From: the human T2T-CHM13v2.0 reference genome, Homo sapiens
NCBI RefSeq assembly: GCF_009914755.1
Contig: NC_060930.1
Reading direction: 5' to 3' (one strand)
DNA: 64,000 bases
Numbering within the stretch: the first letter of the stretch is position 1; each line of letters begins with the position of its first letter. Below the pieces are notes generated by a model. The model made no database searches. It saw only the letters and a program-made list of their open reading frames with translations, and was not told the origin of the DNA. Made by a program: the position numbers and the translations under genes. Shown here piece after piece: positions 1 to 48,729 of this stretch.

Positions 1-560
1 TGTCCAGGGCACTACTAACCTGTTGAGTTAATTGGGAAATGAAGGATGGACCATTGTCATTCTGCAATGACCTGGGTTGGCTGAACTGAGGAATGAGTTC
101 CTTTAGGAGGAATTTAGCTACCTCCTGTGCCTTTTCAGTCCTTGTGAGGCAGGCTTCTACCCATCCTGTGAAGGTGTCTACACAGACCACGAGGTACTTA
201 AACCTGTGGTATGCAGGGAGCTGAGTGAAGTCCATCTGCCAGTCCTCCGCAGGGTATGTACCTCTCCTTTGGATTGGACTTACTGATGGAGAGGGCTTCC
301 CCGTCTGGGGATTATTTATAGTGCACAAAGTGCAGGCTTGACAAACCTGTTGAATAGTTTTATTTAGTCCCTCCCCCACTGAACACTGGTTTACAAATTT
401 GCCTTAGACTGTCTCTTCTAAAGTGGCGGGAGTCCTGTAAACTCTTGATGGTTTCCATTGGTAGGCTTTAGGTAGACGGAGAAGTTCTCCCAACCTATAT
501 CATCCATTGGTTTCTTTTCAATACCCATGTTGGGTGGCCCAATCTGTTTCTTCCTTAATG
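1..560 (-). pseudogene. pol integrase remnant
   Basis: Minus-strand translation gives CQACTINNP (HHCC zinc finger end) and QRRGTYPAEDWQMDFTQLP, typical of gammaretroviral integrase; frame is disrupted. Confidence 0.85.
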
Positions 561-599
561 TATTGGAGAGAGAGCAGTTCACTGGGGAGAGAGATGAGC

Positions 600-1190
600 A
601 AGGCCCCCATGAAGGTATCTTTTGAGATGCCTGTCTCTTTAGCTGTTTAGTTAGCTAACCTATTTCCCTATGCAGTTTCATTAGAGCCCCTTTGGTGTCC
701 TTTACTGTGCACTATTGTCACCTCCTGGGGCAAATGAACAGCTTCTAATAGCTCTAAGATTTGAGGCCCATATTTAATTTGAGTATCTGGAGCTGTTAGG
801 TACACCCTCTCCTTCCAGATAGCTGTGTGAGTGTGAAGAACCAGAAACGTGTATTTGGAATTTGTATATACTCCTTTTCTTTCCCCTAGTTTAGGGCTTT
901 TGTCAGCACAGTGAGTTTGGCTAATTGCACAGAGGTCCCCGGGGACAGAGCTTTAACCTCTGTAATTTGTTGAAGGGACATTGTACCATACTCTGCATAT
1001 CTAGCTCTATCCCTGACAAAGCTATTCCCACCTGAAAACCGTATGTCATGTGGATTATCTAGGAGCTGATCTTTTAAATCTTCCTGGCTGGCATAAATTT
1101 GGTTAAGTATCTCACAACACAAATGTGGTGTTATGGTCTCCTGGTAGTGGCAGTAAGGAAACTGAGTTAAGGGTGGAACACTGCTCAACT
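600..1190 (-). pseudogene. pol RNase H remnant
   Basis: ORF 886-1188 contains DLKDQLL...FSGGNSFV (decayed FTDGSSFV) and SVQLAKLTVLTKAL (decayed SAQLAELIALTRAL). Confidence 0.85.
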
Positions 1191-1195
1191 GTTAC

Positions 1196-1900
1196 CTATG
1201 GGTTTTCTAACAACAAGACTTGGTACTTTAGGAGTCTGTTTTCAGACACGTTGTATTCTCTGTCTGCAAGGAAGTTTGGTGTTTGGACTAGATGTTGGAT
1301 TCCCAGTTCTCTTGTTGGGGAGCAGATTAACAGGTCATCCATGTATTGTAGGAGACACTCTCTCCTCTCAAGACTTAGGTCCTGCAAATCTCTAGCCAGG
1401 GCTTGCCCAGACCAATGGGGACTGTCTCTGAAACCCTGTTGAAGCACTGTGCAGGTGAGTTGTTGACTCCTTCCTTTTCATTCTCCCACTCAAATGCAAA
1501 TAGAAATTGGGAGGATGGGTCGAGGGGGAGATACAAAAGAAAGAGTCTTTAAGGTCTAAGACTGGAAACCACTGAGCATCTGGAGGTTGGGGAAGAATTA
1601 CATATGAGTTGGGGATCATTGGGTGTATTGGGACTACTGCCTCATTTATGATTCTCAGGTCCTGGACTAGCCTGTATTTTTCATTGCTCTTTTTAACAGG
1701 TAAGATGGGGTGTTATAGGGTATTAATAATCCATGTTTTTGAAATTTTTCAGTCAGAAGCTGAAATCCCTCTTTGGCCTCCAGCTGAAGAGGAAACTGCC
1801 TTCTACAAGGATAGCTAGAAGGATTCTTGGGCTGAATTACTATAGGCATTGCCATTATGGCCTTTCCTGTTATTCCTGAGGCCCAGACCTCTGGATAAAT
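1196..1900 (-). pseudogene. pol reverse transcriptase remnant, frameshifted and internally deleted
   Basis: ORF fragments WFPVLDLKDSFF, QGFRDSPH and LLQYMDDLL lie in different frames. Confidence 0.92.
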
Positions 1901-1979
1901 GGGAAGGTCTGTGAACAGTTCATCCTTGTGTATGGTTTCCTTGAGGCATAAGATTGCATTTGAAAAAGGGGGTGTTGGC

Positions 1980-2260
1980 CCTGGAGGAAAGGTTAACTGA
2001 GCCCCTAGTCTGAGCAAAATATCTCTACCCAAAAGGTATGTAGGGTATTCTGGCATCACTAAAAATGAATGAGAAAAGACGGTTTTCCCCCAGAGACAGC
2101 ACAGAGGAGGAGTAAACCTCCAGGTTACGGGCACTTCATATCCTCCCAGGAGGATAATTGCCTGGGAAAAGAGGTAAGCATTGAGCAGGCAGCCCTCATG
2201 TCCAAAAGAAAACTTACAGTCCTACTGGGCACATCCAAGGCAGCCCTTGGCTCTGTCCCT
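1980..2260 (-). pseudogene. retroviral protease remnant
   Basis: SFLLDMRAACS (decayed DTGA active site) at about 2180-2217 and LLGRDIL motif in ORF 1667-2134. Confidence 0.85.
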
Positions 2261-2329
2261 TCAATAGTGTTATTTAATCCAGGAGCCAAGTGGAGCGTAG
2301 GGCCCCCTTCAGCTCAAGGAGCTGAAGGT

Positions 2330-3740
2330 CATCCAGTTGGGATGTCCTGAGGGCCTTTCAGCTTTCAGGGTAGTCCTGTTTCCCAGTGGCCAAGATTGTG
2401 GCAATTGGAGCATGGAGAGCTGGGGGTGGGTGTCCCCATCGGTTTGGGCACTGCCTTCTTGTGTGGCCTGGCTCCCCACAGAAGTAGCATTTGGGCAAAG
2501 GGATCTCCCTGGGGCCTGCCAGAGGTGGCTGGCAGGTTTGCAGGGCAGTCAGTAGTTGGAGCTGTTGCTTTTCCTTTTGCCTCTCCTTTTCTTGAGCCCT
2601 TTCCTACTCCTCCTGGTTTTGGTTGTAAAAGACCAAGGAACCTACTTTGCAGATGTCAGGCATAGGGGTACTGGGATCCAGTGCTAGTTTCTGGTGTTTC
2701 CTCCTAATATCTGGGGTTGTTTGAGTTAGGGAAATGATCCTTTATGAACAGTTGTCCTTCTAGTGGGTCTGGGTCTAGGTTAGTGTGTTTCACTAGGGCC
2801 TCTTCTAGCCTGTCTAAGAAAATGGTGAGGTTTTCATAAGGCCCTTGATCTGTCAAGCCCAATTTATTACAGTTCACAGGCTTTGCTCTGCTAGCTTTCA
2901 TTCCTTCTATCAGATAGAGGAACATGTGGGTCCTTGCTCATGTACTCCCCTGGATATTGTAATCCCAATTGGGGTTGACCTGGGGAACTATGGTGGCCCC
3001 CACAGGGTAGCCACCAGTGTCAGGCATGTGCATTGTGTTTGCAAATTGTTGGACCGCCACCATAATGGAGTCACATTCTCCCTTAGGCAGAGTTTGCCCT
3101 AGTATGACTGAGAGGTCCCTCCTGGTGAGTTCAGATGTTAAGCCCAGTTTATAAAACACTTTGATATATTTGTCAGGGTCCTCCATAAACTTCCCTAGTT
3201 CCATTTTAATTTGGCTCAGGTCTTGCACAGTGAATGGAGTCTGGACTCCAGTGGGTCCACTGGGACCACTAAACCTCCTGAATGGGGCATAACTTAAGGA
3301 GGTGGTGTCCAGAGGATGGCCCTGGGTAGGGAGGAGAAGGCTTCTGGGAGACTTCGATATAATTGGGTAGAAGGGGCAGTGGGGCTTGAGCTCTGGGTAA
3401 ACCTGATGAGGGGCCTTCTGAACCAATGGGAAGGGGCTGCATGACTATGGCCATGGATCTGTTTTACAAGCCCAACAAAGGTCAGGGTTGTTTCTTAGGG
3501 CCATGAAGGCCAGCACCTAGGGGATTTCTGTCCATTTTCCCTGGTGGTAGCAAAACAAATCTAGTTGATGGATCATATTTAAATTTGTGCTTCTATTTTC
3601 TGGCCAAGATTCCTGGTCCTAGAGCTTTTATTCAACCCAGGCTGTATTACAGAAAAATATTAGCCTTTTCCTTTTTAGGGTTTGGGAGTCAAACTTTTCC
3701 CAGTTCTTGAGGATGTATCCTAGTAGTGTGTCCTGTGGTA
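2330..3740 (-). pseudogene. gag remnant (MA, CA, NC)
   Basis: MA-like LGYILKNWEKFD...LIFFCNTAW; CA-like DLSQIKMELGKFMEDPDKYI and QGPYENLTIFLDRLEEAL; intact CCHC knuckle CYFCGEPGHTRRQC at 2448-2489; stops and frameshifts elsewhere. Confidence 0.9.
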
Positions 3741-5589
3741 CAGAGACTTGATTACCTGTCCACAGAGAGAACAGAGGAGAGAAGAGAAAAAGAAGGCAAC
3801 CCCTCCAATTTCCCTACTGTCTTTTTCCTGAACTTACAGCAGACCAGAGTGGGTAGGGCATTACCCCATTCATCCATTTTTCCTTTGCGTATGGCAGTGT
3901 CCCCCATTCATTCTAGGGGTTCCAGAATGAACCAGTGCTTACCAGGTACCCCTAACCTTGGTCCCATCTTGTTTTATTGAGGCACAATTACCCGTTTGTA
4001 AAGAAAGAACAGAGGCGAGAAGAGGGCATCTCCCCTTGTTCTCTTAATCCTGTGCCTATGGCAGACTACAGTGAACAGGGTGCCCTCCCACTCATCCAAG
4101 GGGTTCTGGAATGAACCCAGTGTTTACTGGGTACCCCTACCCTGATCCCATCCCATTTCTGGACCAGCCTTCATCTGTGTTGCAGTGGTAATCTGTTTTG
4201 TGTTTGTAGCCTGGAACTAGTCTTCATCTCTGTTCTATGGGTACTTTGGTCTCTTGCATCTGCCTCCTTGGGCTGTCCTATATCCTTGTCTCCATGACCT
4301 TATAGTGACCCTTGTTCAGAGCATTCTAGCAACAGAATGATGATCTCTTCTCAGATTCTCATTTCCCATGTTCTTTAAGAAGACGAGAAGCCTGTTTTTC
4401 TGCCAATTGCTGCAAGGGGGCTGGACTTCTCTCCCTTCAAATATAACTTTGAAGGTCCTGATACATATTGAGAAGGGCCTGGAGGTGATTAGAGGAATGG
4501 AGGAAAATTTGTATTTGGGATTCTTCATCCTCCCAGGGTAACATGCAGAACAAATGCTTAACGAGGTAGAACAATCCCTCTGCTACAGGAGAAAGCGGGA
4601 GGAAGCAAGAGGAATACTCATGGAAAGCCTTCATATGTTTGCAGAAACAGCAGCCCTTGGATTTGAGAGGGCAACGTTTATTTGCCCTCTTGATATAAAG
4701 GAGGAACCTCTGGAGGACTTGGTGTTTGGGATAAGACCCTGCAAACGGCAGAGAATTTTCCTTCCCCACAAAGGGGTGCTAACTCAGAAAAAAAGCGAGT
4801 GGGTGGGGTCCTTAAGGGCTACAGAGTGAGGTCCTATGCAAGCAAGCAAACCATTCAAAAGCCAGGGAGAAACATGGCCCTGGAGCATAACAGGGATGAA
4901 AAGCATATGGTAAGTCATAAGGAGCTGACAGAGCTAAGGTTCTGATTAGTGTCTATCCCGGCAGTGAGCCAACAGACAGGGAAAGGGTTGGAGGTCATCC
5001 GAGCTGGTAGGGTAACAAGTATAAATATCAAGGGACATCCGTAAGGGAGTCCATCTCTTGGTTGCCAGGCTAACACAGCAAGAGCTGCGGGTGCATGAAT
5101 AACAAATAGGGAATGTGTGTTTAAGGCAGAGAAGAAAGTTGCAGGGCATGCAAAGTAAGAACAGAGAAAAGACAGACTTACCCCCAAGGCAGTTGGTCCA
5201 ATGGGTGTGCGAGGTCATTTTGGAATACATACAGAGAAAGGAAAATAGGTGGTGGTGGGTTTTTGGGAAAGAGCTGATTTTAGTTGAAAAAGCAGAGGAA
5301 ACCCCAGATACTACATGGTTGTAGGTTTTAGCCCTACCGCTCTCATCAGCCTCCTGTCCGGGGGGGCCATTAGTGTCTCAGGTCTACTTAGTGCAGACTC
5401 CAAGGTCCTTCCCACCCCTGCAAGCCATCCTTCGGGGTGAGCAGAGAGAGCAGCCAGGGGGAGCAGAGCCACTGTGGTTGAGAGGAATTGTTCCAGGGGT
5501 AGGTTAGTAAGCAGGAGAGTGAAAGAGGAGAACGAAACCACGTACGAGGGTTGAACGCCTCCAGCCGAAGAAGGCAAGGCGTAGAGGTG

Positions 5590-5598
5590 TCTTACCAC
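5590..5598 (-). other. major splice donor of the provirus (GTG|GTAAGA), likely the end of non-coding exon 1 of the env mRNA
   Basis: Plus-strand tcttaccac at 5590-5598; near-consensus donor just downstream of the PBS. Confidence 0.7.
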
Positions 5599-5608
5599 TA
5601 GGGAAGGT

Positions 5609-5626
5609 ATCCGAGTCACTGCACCA
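5609..5626 (-). other. primer binding site, tRNA-His
   Basis: Plus strand ATCCGAGTCACTGCACCA versus tRNA-His 3' end ATCCGAGTCACGGCACCA (17/18), 2 nt from the LTR end. Confidence 0.9.
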
Positions 5627-5628
5627 TT

Positions 5629-6136
5629 TGAGAGATCCAAGTGCCCTGTTCAGCCCTTGACTTGGGGTTTTATACATCGGCATGGTTCCGGGGTTTCCAT
5701 TTCTCCTCCTTGGATTTTTTTCCTTGGGGTGGGCTGTCTGCTGTGCAGTGGCCTGTCAGCACTTGGGAGGAGCCACATGTGCATTTGTTTACTGAAGTTG
5801 TGCGCATGCTTTCTTGAGACATTTTTCCCTTATCAGTCAGGTGTTCCTAGAGGAAGGTCACATACTGGTTAAACTGTCATTTTGCTTCTTAGTGCGCATG
5901 CTTGAGCCCACTTGCCCAGCTTCGGAGATCTTATCAGGAAGTTGCTGATCACCAGCTTCCGGTGTTTCCTGTCTTTTGGGAGACTGTCTTTCCCTGGTAC
6001 TGGCTGCAACCCATTATTATTATTTTAGAGAAACAGTGTAACAACCGCCTGATCATCACCTGATGGTCGCCTGACATTCCTGAGCTGGGGGCCCTCTCCT
6101 GCCCTGCTCATGTCTGCCTGACTACCTACTCTAACA
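5629..6136 (-). promoter_or_regulatory. MER50-type 5' LTR, syncytin-2 promoter
   Basis: Minus strand begins TGTTAGAGTAGGTAG and ends CTCTCA; TATAAAA at 5674-5668; TGATAAG (GATA) motifs at 5829-5835 and 5930-5936. Confidence 0.85.
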
Positions 6137-10356: not shown

Positions 10357-10870
10357 TTTGACATAATTTCTTTGTAAATGTTTGGTAGAATTCATCTGGG
10401 CTGGGACTTTTCTTTTTGGAAAGATTTTCAACTACAAATTCTGTTTCTTTATTAGATATTGGACTATTCCACTTACCTGTTTCTTCTTGAATGAGCTTTC
10501 AGAGTTTGTGTTTTTCAGGCACTGTGTCTGTTTACTCTGAATTGTATAATTTACAGGGATAAAGTTTATAATATTTCTTAATTAGCCTTTTAACACCTGT
10601 AGGATCTGATATTGATTATTTGTGTCCTTTCTTGTTTGTTTGTAATTGGCCTGACTAGAGGTTTATAAATTTTATTGATCTTTTCCAAGAACCACCTTTG
10701 GTTTAATTGATTGTTTTCTCCCTATTGCTTGTCCATATTCTGTTTCATTGGTTTATGCGTATATCTATATATCTTTCCTTCTGCTTATTTTGAGTTTAAT
10801 TTGTACTTCTTTTTCAAGTTTCTTATGGGGAAATCTTGGGTTATTGATTTTAGACTTTTCTTATTTTTAA

Positions 10871-11393
<523 letters not shown>

Positions 11394-11606
11394 GACGTTT
11401 AATAGTTGTTTGTAAGTATTGATTTTGACGTTTAAATTTTTATTCAATTCAAGATATTTTCTAATTTCACTTGTGATTTCTCCCTTGAACCATGGATTAT
11501 TTAGAAGTATGTTGTTAAATTTTGAATATTTGTTCTTTTCCAGATATTTCGTTATCAGTTTCTAATTTGACTTTTTTATGGTCACACAATGTATTTTGTA
11601 TGATAA

Positions 11607-28322: not shown

Positions 28323-28522
28323 GTTGGTATTTTGTATGGCATCTTTTTTTATCAAAATTCAAGTTTCTCCGGGAACTGGTGGGAGACACAGGATCCCAAG
28401 AGGGAGATCATGAGCCTTCAGGGTCTGAAACTGAAGAAGACACTTCCTCCTCTCCACACAGAATCAGATCCGCTCGCCAAAGGAGGGCACCTGCTGATGA
28501 AGGCCACAGACCCCTGACATAG
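28323..28522 (+). CDS. SMIM13: SMIM13 (small integral membrane protein 13) last coding exon, phase-1 start; exon 1 is outside the window
   Basis: Polypyrimidine tract and AG at 28321-28322; peptide GWYFVWHLFLSKFKFLRELVGDTGSQEGDHEPSGSETEED...GHRPLT* recognised as the SMIM13 C-terminus. Confidence 0.93.
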
Positions 28523-28821: not shown

Positions 28822-29833
28822 CCATATTTTGTTAGCCCTAAAATGTACATTTTTCTTCCCATTTTAACTTATCTGAAATTGGGATGCATCTCATTACTGT
28901 CAACCAGGTGATAGTCATGTAACGCTCCTACCGTGTGCATGTGTGAATTTACAGCTTGTCATCGTGTCATCCCTTTAACCAACATGTGTTTTGTTGGTAT
29001 CAAATGTGTCAGGTTTAATTGACATTTTAAAATGTCTTCAAAAAGATCACACTATGATTCAGCATTGAAACGAAAAGTTATTGTGTATGCAGAAAAGCAT
29101 GGAAACAGAGCAGCAGGGCGTACATTTGATATTAGTGAAGCAAATATTCGTCGCTGGAGAAATGATCGCAATTCCATATTTTCCTGCAAAGCAACAACAA
29201 AATGTTTTACGGGACCTAAGAAAGGTAGGTACCCACAAGTAGATGAAGCTGTACTACGTTTCGTCAGTGAGACACGTGCAAAAGGATTGCCTATCACACG
29301 CCAAGCAATGCAATTGAAGGCAGGAGAAGTTGCCAAAACCCTAGGAATTGATGAAACAAAATTCAAAGCCACAAGAGGCTGGTGTGACCGATTCATGCGT
29401 CGAGCAGGACTATCATTAAGGCATCAAACATCGTTTTGTCCCAAGCTCCCCACTGCCATTAAACAGAAGACAGTGTTGGAGCACTCTTTCAAGAAGTGCT
29501 GCATAACCAGTACTCTTGACAACACCGGGAGAGACGTTCTGTGGAAAAATGCAGACATCAATGACTGTGGTTTGAAAAGTGATTCAGAAGAGTTGGATTC
29601 AGAATATGAAGTTATAATTATAACTTAACCAATTTATTTCACACATTTTCTTTACATATGCACAAGATTGATGTGATAAAAATCTGTTTAACTCAAAGCG
29701 CTGTTTCAATAAATATAAACATTTTCTGTGATATGAAAGCATTGTGTCATAGTTTAATGGGCAGTGTTTTTTCTTAGTGATACATATGGTGCATCTTAAC
29801 AATTGGTAGTGTCTTAGGTTAAATTAAAAATGG
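28822..29833 (+). mobile_element. TcMar-Tc2/pogo DNA transposon (Kanga/MER104-like), internally deleted
   Basis: Decayed TIRs ccatattttgttagccctaaaatgtac and gtgtcttaggttaaattaaaaatgg followed by TA; subterminal attttaacttatctgaaattgggatgcatct resembles the Kanga/MER104 end as I recall it; contains a transposase-derived ORF. Confidence 0.75.
29032..29628 (+). CDS. candidate 198-aa pogo-transposase-derived DNA-binding protein (Brinker-type HTH, CENP-B HTH, acidic tail; no DDE domain)
   Basis: Uninterrupted ORF with aaaATG context; YDSALKRKVIVYAEKHGNRAAGRTFDISEANIRRWR, GRYPQVDEAVLRFV, FKATRGWCDRFMRRAGLSLR and SFKKCCITSTLD; translation not shown. Confidence 0.6.
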   Translation: MSSKRSHYDSALKRKVIVYAEKHGNRAAGRTFDISEANIRRWRNDRNSIFSCKATTKCFTGPKKGRYPQVDEAVLRFVSETRAKGLPITRQAMQLKAGEVAKTLGIDETKFKATRGWCDRFMRRAGLSLRHQTSFCPKLPTAIKQKTVLEHSFKKCCITSTLDNTGRDVLWKNADINDCGLKSDSEELDSEYEVIIIT

Positions 29834-30746: not shown

Positions 30747-30782
30747 AAATAATGCCCCCAAAAACTTTTGGGGGCATTATTT
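30747..30782. repeat. perfect 17-bp inverted repeat with 2-nt spacer
   Basis: AAATAATGCCCCCAAAA-AC-TTTTGGGGGCATTATTT. Confidence 0.95.
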
Positions 30783-47650: not shown

Positions 47651-48229
47651 TAGAAAGTGAAACAAGGAGACACTTTCCATTTTCAGATATGATGGAGTGG
47701 TTAGTAGAAAACTGATGCTTCCAGTGAGAACAACAGAAAAAGAGAGATCCAATTGAAAGGGATCTGTTTGAAGTCTTCAGAGAGTCACAGAGACACCCCA
47801 CAGATGAAGGGTCAAAATACTAGAGAGAAGGGAATCCCACTGAAGTGAGCCCAACATTCTGAATGTTGATTTTCTCCCTTGGCATTTGCTAATTCTTGGC
47901 ATGAAGAAAGAGGTTGAGAGGCTTGGTAGAGACTTGGAAGGGGAGGAAAAGCAGCAGAGTTCTCACGGTCTTACAGGTCTGAGGTGATAAAACTTGGAGT
48001 GTGGAGTTTCCAAGTCGGCTGGGTTCAAGAAGTCTTGGTTCCAGAGAGAAGGGAGGTGCAGAGGAGTGAGCCTGACATCTGACGGTTTCTCTCGGAAGTG
48101 CGTAGTGTTAGTTATGTAGAGTGACAGTCAAGCCGGGAAAAGCAACTGGAAAGCAAGGTGGGATTTTAGCAGTCTTGTGTTGTAACGGAGATAAAAACTA
48201 GAGTTTGGGAACTGACAAGGAAGTAGCGT

Positions 48230-48336
48230 TTTATTTTATTTTTTTGAGACTGAGTCTCGCACTGTCGCCCGGGCTGGAGTGCAGTGGTGCGATCTCGGCT
48301 CACTGCAACCTCCGCCTCCCAGCTTCACGCGATTCA
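48230..48336 (-). mobile_element. 5'-truncated Alu (3' end only)
   Basis: About 100 bp of right arm; TSD aaggaagtagcRttt on both sides. Confidence 0.88.
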
Positions 48337-48729
48337 AGGAAGTAGCATTTAGCAAATGCGCCAGGCTTTCAGGTGAGACCATTGGAAAGGGAGTGCATGA
48401 GGGCTGATCAAGCCTTACTGCAACGCAGACTTCGTCTTCTTAGTCCCTGACTGGATTGAGATAAACTGACCTTACTCCAGCAGCCTGTCAGACCACGGGG
48501 TAACCCTTCTCCAGAGGAAAGTAACTCCATCCAGAGCCTCTAGACCCTGTGATCAGCATTCAATTCAAAATTAGTAGGATTCAAGAAAGAGGATCAAGAG
48601 AAAAAACATACTCACATGTGTCCTAGATTGTTGTAGCTATCAGATGCAGACTTTAATTGTAATTATCGTGATCAAGAAAATAAATTACAAAATGAAGAAT
48701 TTTACTAGAAAACTGGAATGTATATTTTT

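What the first reader, a model, noticed from the sequence alone, without database searches (positions are those of the whole stretch)
29071..29403. CpG-containing arginine codons preserved in the DNA-binding half of the ORF
Seen, by hand count: 16 CpGs in the 597-bp ORF against about 4 in the 415 bp of flanking transposon. Eleven are in-frame CGN Arg codons (14, 30, 40, 41, 46, 76, 82, 90, 120, 123, 124). Three are CGA, one deamination from TGA. The TIRs appear to have lost their CpGs (CCATAT where I recall CCGTAT in the consensus). Inference: selective retention of hypermutable Arg codons in the HTH domains is internal evidence for protein-level purifying selection.
Basis: partly seen in the sequence, partly recalled or inferred. 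Interest (0 to 1): 0.7.

Follow-up and report, generated by a model that had tools for sequence, protein, structure and literature searches.

The report
Overlooked transposase-derived gene inside SMIM13 3'UTR
A fragment of an ancient DNA transposon in the untranslated tail of the human SMIM13 gene keeps an intact 198-amino-acid reading frame that selection has protected and that a ribosome-profiling catalogue lists as translated, so it is likely an overlooked mammalian gene for a DNA-binding regulator.

Summary
The counts are exact: 16 CpGs in the 597-bp ORF (window 29032-29628), 4 in 415 bp of flanking transposon, 11 CGN arginines. Twenty-seven other human copies of the element keep CpG at 3 of 252 positions at those 11 sites, and all 27 are frameshifted. 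This copy lost 7 of 8 non-Arg ancestral CpGs, all silently; pN/pS is 0.16 against 0.84, at equal pS. The ORF is a Passer-type pogo transposase DNA-binding region with the DDE domain deleted in frame. Nineteen near-full-length homologs exist, two named donkey and cat. A chrX retrocopy shows an mRNA polyadenylated just after the ORF. The ORF is already catalogued as translated SMIM13 dORF c6riboseqorf8, but labelled primate-young, with no mass-spectrometry support. Verdict: likely an unannotated domesticated DNA-binding protein gene. Ten paper searches found no description of it as such. Protein, mRNA 5' end and targets are untested.

The parts
28822..29833 (+). Internally deleted pogo/Passer-type DNA transposon, 1012 bp (Kanga1/MER104 label recalled, not tested)
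   Evidence: Ends read; 42 related places in the human genome, 40 of 212 candidates scored; family ends compared
28323..28522 (+). SMIM13 coding part of exon 2; the element lies in this exon's 3'UTR
   Evidence: RefSeq table given with the finding; ORF ending at 28522
29010..29013 (+). Candidate splice acceptor CAG|G, 19 nt before the ATG (inferred, no junction read seen)
   Evidence: Only YAG of 9 between 28523 and 29031 with no ATG before the ORF; YAGG within 30 nt of the ATG in 2 of 25 family copies, plain YAG in 9 of 25; weak pyrimidine tract, 0.53
29032..29628 (+). 198-aa ORF, identical to catalogued SMIM13 dORF c6riboseqorf8
29044..29169 (+). First helix-turn-helix, Brinker-like (codons 5-46), holding R14, R30, R40, R41, R46
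   Evidence: BrkDBD E=0.0011, 19.3 bits, under the 23.4 cut-off; model matches Brinker 2glo at Z 7.5, rmsd 2.9, 54 residues
29230..29421 (+). Second helix-turn-helix, HTH_Tnp_Tc5 (codons 67-130), holding R76, R82, R90, R120, R123, R124
   Evidence: Pfam E=8.5e-16; CENP-B 1hlv best match by sequence and fold
29467..29478 (+). In-frame deletion junction (codons 146-149) that removes about 224 aligned residues including the DDE domain
   Evidence: Alignment with P0028-P0030 and POGK; DDE_1 present in P0028-P0030; among 56 loci only the chrX retrocopy has the same junction
29581..29625 (+). Conserved acidic plus hydrophobic C-terminus (codons 184-198), resembling a SUMO-interacting motif (motif recalled, untested)
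   Evidence: Majority residue in 15-19 of 19 homologs at each position while residues 137-182 drift; family copies end differently
29708..29733 (+). AATAAA (29708-29713) and proximal poly(A) site near 29733
   Evidence: chrX retrocopy L002 ends at 29733 with an A-run and a 16-bp target-site duplication

Best explanation
The ORF is a pogo-transposase DNA-binding region without its catalytic domain, kept under protein-level purifying selection, and is likely a domesticated gene whose protein is predicted to bind DNA and would act as a transcription regulator. Shown: two helix-turn-helix units, DDE deleted, selection on amino acids, a Ribo-seq listing, and an mRNA once polyadenylated just after the stop. 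Inferred steps: (1) the deleted copy landed in SMIM13's last exon before primates split from carnivores and horses; (2) it is likely translated from its own short-leader mRNA, made by splicing an upstream non-coding exon to the acceptor at 29012 or by a nearby start site, and ended at 29733 (about 55%); (3) the invariant arginines 40, 41, 120 and 124 sit in the third helices and would read DNA, probably a motif like the element's repeated terminal CGTCTTA, whose CpG has decayed in old copies, so present targets may be unmethylated host sites (about 45%); (4) the acquired C-terminal acidic-VIVIT end would recruit SUMO-modified cofactors, making it a repressor (about 30%).
For: CpG pattern. pS 0.22 here against mean 0.23 in 27 copies; pN 0.034 against 0.19; Fisher p=4e-6. 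About 9 breaks expected per 399 nt of neutral copy, none here, Poisson P about 1e-4. Nineteen near-full-length homologs at 72-99% identity, two named Equus asinus and Felis catus by UniRef; mean identity 91% in residues 1-133 against 58% in the tail, no internal gaps in 1-133. They share the deletion junction and locus-derived residues K22, T109, K110 (17 of 19 each), and group apart from full transposases and POGK at 97/89 support. Model of residues 1-146 has pLDDT 89, best match CENP-B-DNA complex. Listed as Ribo-seq dORF with PhyloCSF primates +112. Retrocopy with poly(A) and duplication. Nine ATGs lie between the SMIM13 stop and the ORF, which disfavours simple reinitiation. Terminal motif: 15 hits in 25 left ends against 2 in controls, 9 in 15 right ends against 2, a CA/TG mix with no CG before TCTTA.
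Against: The same catalogue row gives 0 mass-spectrometry studies, PhyloCSF mammals -1669 and 'primatomorpha - young, duplication'. Seven homologs in the same tree group are truncated or altered (P0020, P0021, P0023-P0027), so the gene may be lost in some lineages. Orthology rests on shared derived sequence, not on synteny; species are named for 2 of 27 homologs. RefSeq annotates no coding sequence here. No splice junction or start site was seen. Joining the annotated exon-1 donor to the 29012 acceptor puts SMIM13's ATG in another frame that stops at 29066, overlapping the start. R76 and R82 drift. BrkDBD is under its cut-off. Binding site and SUMO link are untested.
Confidence: 0.72

Rival explanations
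1. Same protein, different route: it is made as a second cistron from the full-length SMIM13 mRNA by reinitiation, internal entry or leaky scanning.
For: The catalogue maps it as a dORF on SMIM13. RefSeq lists one SMIM13 transcript. No alternative junction was seen, and the candidate acceptor has a weak pyrimidine tract.
Against: Nine ATGs and about 510 nt lie between the SMIM13 stop and the ORF. Two homologs (P0010, P0016) carry unrelated N-terminal extensions joined just before the Met, as spliced first exons would give (inference).
Confidence: 0.25
2. A once-functional domesticated gene that is now relaxed or decaying in humans: selection acted in early mammals, and present translation is residual.
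For: No mass-spectrometry support and negative mammal-wide PhyloCSF; broken homologs; pN/pS against the family majority integrates over the whole history.
Against: The human frame is intact with all three CGA codons kept. The chrX retrocopy, only 9% diverged (37 of 403), already lost 5 of 7 CpGs in its span and gained stops and a frameshift. PhyloCSF primates is +112.
Confidence: 0.1
3. The protein's job is defence: a catalytically dead DNA-binding domain that blocks transposases of its own family at the element ends.
For: Anatomy of a dominant-negative transposase: binding domains kept, DDE removed; terminal motif repeated in family copies.
Against: All 27 examined copies are about 20% diverged and frameshifted, so there has long been no active element to block, yet constraint continues across mammals. 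It may explain the first fixation only.
Confidence: 0.1
4. No protein function: the stretch is conserved as a 3'UTR or DNA element, or escaped methylation, or is simply a younger copy.
For: It lies in a 3'UTR, where RNA-level constraint is common; germline methylation was not measured.
Against: Changes fall at third positions (12.8% against 3.4% and 5.2%); all 7 non-Arg CpG losses are silent; pS equals that of other copies, so it is no younger; GC 0.40 with no island, against CpG o/e 0.93 at the SMIM13 promoter.
Confidence: 0.03

Closest known systems
POGK (Passer-derived, BrkDBD + HTH_Tnp_Tc5 + DDE + KRAB)
   Same: Same transposase family and the same pair of DNA-binding motifs (Gao 2020, PMC7386202); best intact human match, 43% over residues 5-149 (the name POGK for L035 is recalled from its sequence and place).
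   Different: No KRAB, no DDE; separate origin, since the ORF groups with P0022, P0028, P0029 rather than POGK; lies inside another gene's 3'UTR.
CENP-B and the TIGD/JRK group of domesticated pogo genes
   Same: Two-HTH fold, best match 1hlv; single intact copy under purifying selection (ratio 0.16, inside the 0.055-0.207 range tabulated by Gao 2020, though computed differently).
   Different: Gao 2020 lists 12 genes and says all retain the DDE domain; this ORF is not among them and lacks DDE.
Passer transposases (P0028, P0029, P0030)
   Same: 73%, 73% and 45% identity over the binding region; same C-terminal FKKCC...W block.
   Different: They carry DDE_1; this ORF cannot transpose.
GENCODE Ribo-seq ORF c6riboseqorf8
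   Same: The very same 198-aa ORF.
   Different: Listed as young, from duplication, with no mention of a transposase in the row seen; the data here point to an older, selected gene.
ZBED6 (PMC2780926, search listing and abstract start only)
   Same: A transcription factor from a domesticated DNA transposon in placental mammals.
   Different: hAT superfamily with BED fingers (recalled), not pogo HTH; function proven there, untested here.

Membership tests
Passer (pogo) transposase lineage | BrkDBD plus HTH_Tnp_Tc5, or HTH_Tnp_Tc5 alone, at the N-terminus | tested here: met
   HTH_Tnp_Tc5 E=8.5e-16; BrkDBD weak, E=0.0011; fold matches Brinker and CENP-B
Passer (pogo) transposase lineage | DD35D catalytic domain (active transposase) | tested here: not met
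   Deleted in frame: derived from the family, not a working transposase
Passer (pogo) transposase lineage | Short terminal inverted repeats with TA duplication | tested here: inconclusive
   Degenerate ends, TA on the right and AA on the left; not among the 25 longest inverted repeats shown
Kanga1/MER104 repeat family | Best match to the Dfam or Repbase model | not testable with these tools
   No Dfam library; label recalled. Searches show only that these names are Mariner/Tc1 elements with internal deletions
Domesticated transposase gene | Single intact copy among decayed relatives | tested here: met
   27 of 27 compared copies frameshifted; of 113 protein matches, no other stop-free match over 43% identity spans the binding region
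Domesticated transposase gene | Purifying selection on the protein | tested here: met
   pN/pS 0.16 against median 0.84; CpG phase pattern
Domesticated transposase gene | Orthologs at the syntenic site across species | tested here: inconclusive
   19 near-full-length homologs with shared derived features, donkey and cat named; no DNA context available
Domesticated transposase gene | Transcribed and translated | tested here: met
   Ribo-seq catalogue row; processed retrocopy. Stable protein not shown: 0 MS studies in that row
Sequence-specific transcription factor | Binds a defined DNA motif and changes transcription | not testable with these tools
   Predicted from fold and conserved arginines only
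SUMO-interacting motif protein | Hydrophobic V/I core beside acidic residues that binds SUMO | not tested
   Pattern seen; consensus recalled; no binding prediction obtained

The most novel reading that the evidence does not exclude
An unnamed human transcription factor, conserved across at least Boreoeutheria, hides in the SMIM13 3'UTR: a DDE-less Passer transposase DNA-binding domain with a newly acquired SUMO-interacting tail that represses unmethylated CGTCTTA-type sites, while catalogues misfile it as a young dORF.
Probability: 0.3. Interest if true: 0.88.

Novelty: new member of a known kind. Interest (0 to 1): 0.74.

Why it matters
If true, the human gene set lacks a conserved DNA-binding protein gene, and variants now scored as SMIM13 3'UTR (including three CGA codons one step from a stop) are coding. 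SMIM13 expression signals and knockdowns may partly report this second product. It would add a thirteenth domesticated pogo gene to the twelve of Gao 2020, the first in that list without a DDE domain. It also shows a failure mode: a Ribo-seq ORF inside a repeat was scored as primate-young although close homologs exist in donkey and cat, so other repeat-embedded ORFs in that catalogue deserve the same codon-phase CpG test.

Tried and rejected
Younger insertion: rejected, pS equal to other copies. CpG island or local hypomethylation: rejected indirectly. In-frame fusion to SMIM13: an in-frame TGA lies four codons before the ATG, the exon-1 join is out of frame, and a search of longer proteins found 3 transposases among 853 candidates and no fusion (weak evidence). 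First fold from 28 close homologs was poor, pLDDT 57; redone with 79 sequences. ESM Atlas gave only generic HTH_Tnp_Tc5 clusters and no mammalian taxa. Inverted-repeat search did not show the termini among its 25 longest pairs. Literature: ten searches listed no paper describing this ORF as transposase-derived; 'c6riboseqorf8' occurs in no main text; one search listed 40 of 49 SMIM13 papers, seen as listings only. Mudge 2019 (PMC6886504): SMIM13 absent from main text and supplements searched; file S6 was searched over 4.0 million characters of 8.0 million bytes, file 1 unreadable. No SUMO-tail complex prediction was obtained, so that link is open. Rows dropped from the 27-copy counts: L001 (self), L002 (retrocopy), L024 (covers only the 3' part); 12 further places were not fetched.

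Full report
Observation. The element spans 28822-29833 and its 415 non-coding bases hold 4 CpGs. It lies in the annotated 3'UTR of SMIM13, about 510 nt after the stop.

What the ORF is. Pfam finds HTH_Tnp_Tc5 at residues 67-130 and a sub-threshold BrkDBD at 5-46, with no DDE. That motif pair marks Passer transposases and POGK (Gao 2020, PMC7386202, parts 2 and 3 of 7 read). Against three full transposases and the POGK last exon, residues 1-146 are the binding region, joined in frame to the transposase C-terminal block, with about 224 aligned residues missing. One human copy, L007, has 611 extra bases at this place; among 56 loci only the chrX retrocopy shares the junction. A model of residues 1-146 (pLDDT 89) matches CENP-B bound to DNA (Foldseek E=2.7e-6; Z 10.1, rmsd 5.6, 122 residues) and, in its first half, Brinker (Z 7.5, rmsd 2.9, 54 residues). 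R40 and R41 lie in helix 36-44 and R120, R123, R124 in helix 115-125, the third helices of each unit; that these read DNA follows from known HTH structures, not from a test here.

Test of the CpG argument. One search gave 42 related places (40 of 212 candidates scored); 30 were fetched and 27 cover the binding region. All 27 have at least one frameshift and 26 have a stop. At the 11 Arg sites they keep CG in 3 of 252 cells. Calling ancestral CpGs from the TG/CA mix gives 20 sites: this copy keeps 11 of 12 at phase 1 (the twelfth, codon 8, is a doubtful call), 1 of 5 at phase 2 and 0 of 3 at phase 3; the copies keep 7 of 448 cells. All seven phase-2/3 losses leave the amino acid unchanged. Fisher p=0.0008. 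So deamination did act here, and only silent outcomes survived.

Independent selection test. On 110 codons touching no CpG site, against the family majority, this copy has pS 0.22 and pN 0.034 (ratio 0.16, p=4e-6); the 27 copies have mean pS 0.23, pN 0.19, median ratio 0.84, range 0.48-1.63. Equal pS means equal age. A neutral copy would carry about 9 breaks in 399 nt; this one has none.

Other species. One search returned 27 proteins of 147 candidates; 19 cover 92-100% of the query at 72-99% identity, and UniRef names two as donkey (82%) and cat (81%). Excluding the near-identical P0001, mean identity is 91% in residues 1-133 and 58% in the tail. R30, R40, R41, R90, R120 and R124 are Arg in 19 of 19, R14 in 18 of 18, R46 in 18, R123 in 17, R82 in 15 and R76 in only 5, where His and Cys, the deamination products, dominate. 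The human ORF, the 19 and seven truncated or altered homologs form one group at 97/89 support, apart from P0022, P0028-P0030 and POGK (midpoint root). Shared junction and derived residues argue for orthology; synteny could not be checked.

Expression. L002 on chrX is a 5'-truncated copy of 29327-29733, 9% diverged, ending 20 nt after AATAAA in an A-run, with a 16-bp duplication, inside what reads as L1 ORF2 (L1 label recalled). An mRNA ending just after the ORF therefore existed in the germline. It has since lost 5 of 7 CpGs. Supplement mmc2 of Sandmann 2023 (PMC10032668; three SMIM13 rows, passages and section 27 read) lists the identical protein as c6riboseqorf8, a dORF, with PhyloCSF +112 in primates and -1669 in mammals, 0 MS studies, 'primatomorpha - young', 'duplication'. 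The catalogue has a replicated set of 3,085 ORFs with 115 dORFs (Mudge preprint 10.1101/2021.06.10.447896, passages); that the 'riboseqorf' prefix marks that set is recalled. The 'young' call rests on the median BLAST E-value over aligned non-primate regions, which misalignment in a repeat or loss in some lineages could lower; I could not tell which. The donkey and cat proteins contradict it.

How it likely works. Nine ATGs separate the SMIM13 stop from the ORF, so a short-leader mRNA is more likely than reinitiation. A CAG|G acceptor 19 nt upstream is the only YAG with no ATG before the start; the family mostly lacks it (2 of 25 YAGG). It is weak and unproven, and joining the annotated exon 1 to it is out of frame. 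The element's ends repeat NN-TCTTA with a CA/TG mix and no CG, pointing to an ancestral CGTCTTA, the likely binding site. The last 15 residues are conserved while 137-182 drift, and the VI[VI]IT end is not that of the family copies; it resembles a SUMO-interacting motif (recalled). These last steps are inference.

Comparison and novelty. Gao 2020 names twelve domesticated pogo genes, all with DDE; the Passer paper (PMC9976928, passages) names POGK and POGZ for this family. This ORF is in neither passage set. Ten searches found no description of it as a transposase gene; most subscription papers are outside the library, and the supplements of PMC13275300 were closed, so a prior note there cannot be excluded. 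Kojima 2018 (PMC5753468) and Dfam 2013 (PMC3531169) were seen as passages for the Kanga names only. The ORF is known as a translated sequence; its reading as an old, selected, domesticated gene appears new.

Verdict. Observation confirmed, interpretation supported. Selected protein-coding frame about 0.9; DNA-binding regulator about 0.72; interest 0.74; new member of a known kind.

Noticed in passing
L002 = G000:C23:53977055-53977470 (-): Processed retrocopy of this ORF's 3' half with poly(A) and a 16-bp target-site duplication; serves as a neutral control.
   Followed up: yes
L062 = G000:C3:37414726-37415036 (-) and upstream: Processed SMIM13 pseudogene: exon 1 joined to exon 2, ending at window 28632 before the transposon, with a junction that keeps a few intron bases. 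May reflect a short SMIM13 mRNA or priming at an A-rich stretch.
   Followed up: partly
L031:1405: Upstream ATG in strong context in SMIM13 exon 1; the catalogue lists a 20-aa uORF c6norep27 there, and an internal out-of-frame ORF c6norep28 in exon 2. The locus has four listed or annotated ORFs.
   Followed up: partly
L007 = G000:C13:33928355-33931764: Family copy with 611 extra bases at the deletion junction, probably a near-full-length decayed element.
   Followed up: no
P0020, P0021, P0023-P0027: Truncated or altered homologs inside the same tree group: possible lineage losses or further retrocopies; species not given.
   Followed up: partly
window 30747-30782: Perfect 17-bp inverted repeat with a 2-nt loop in the SMIM13 3'UTR.
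   Followed up: no
window 48001-48600 and 10801-11600: CpG-rich stretches (up to 16 and 21 CpG per 400 bp); the second overlaps a masked repeat, the first does not.
   Followed up: no
window 1-5644: ERVFRD-1 lies in the SMIM13 intron on the other strand per the annotation, so two element-derived genes would share this locus.
   Followed up: no
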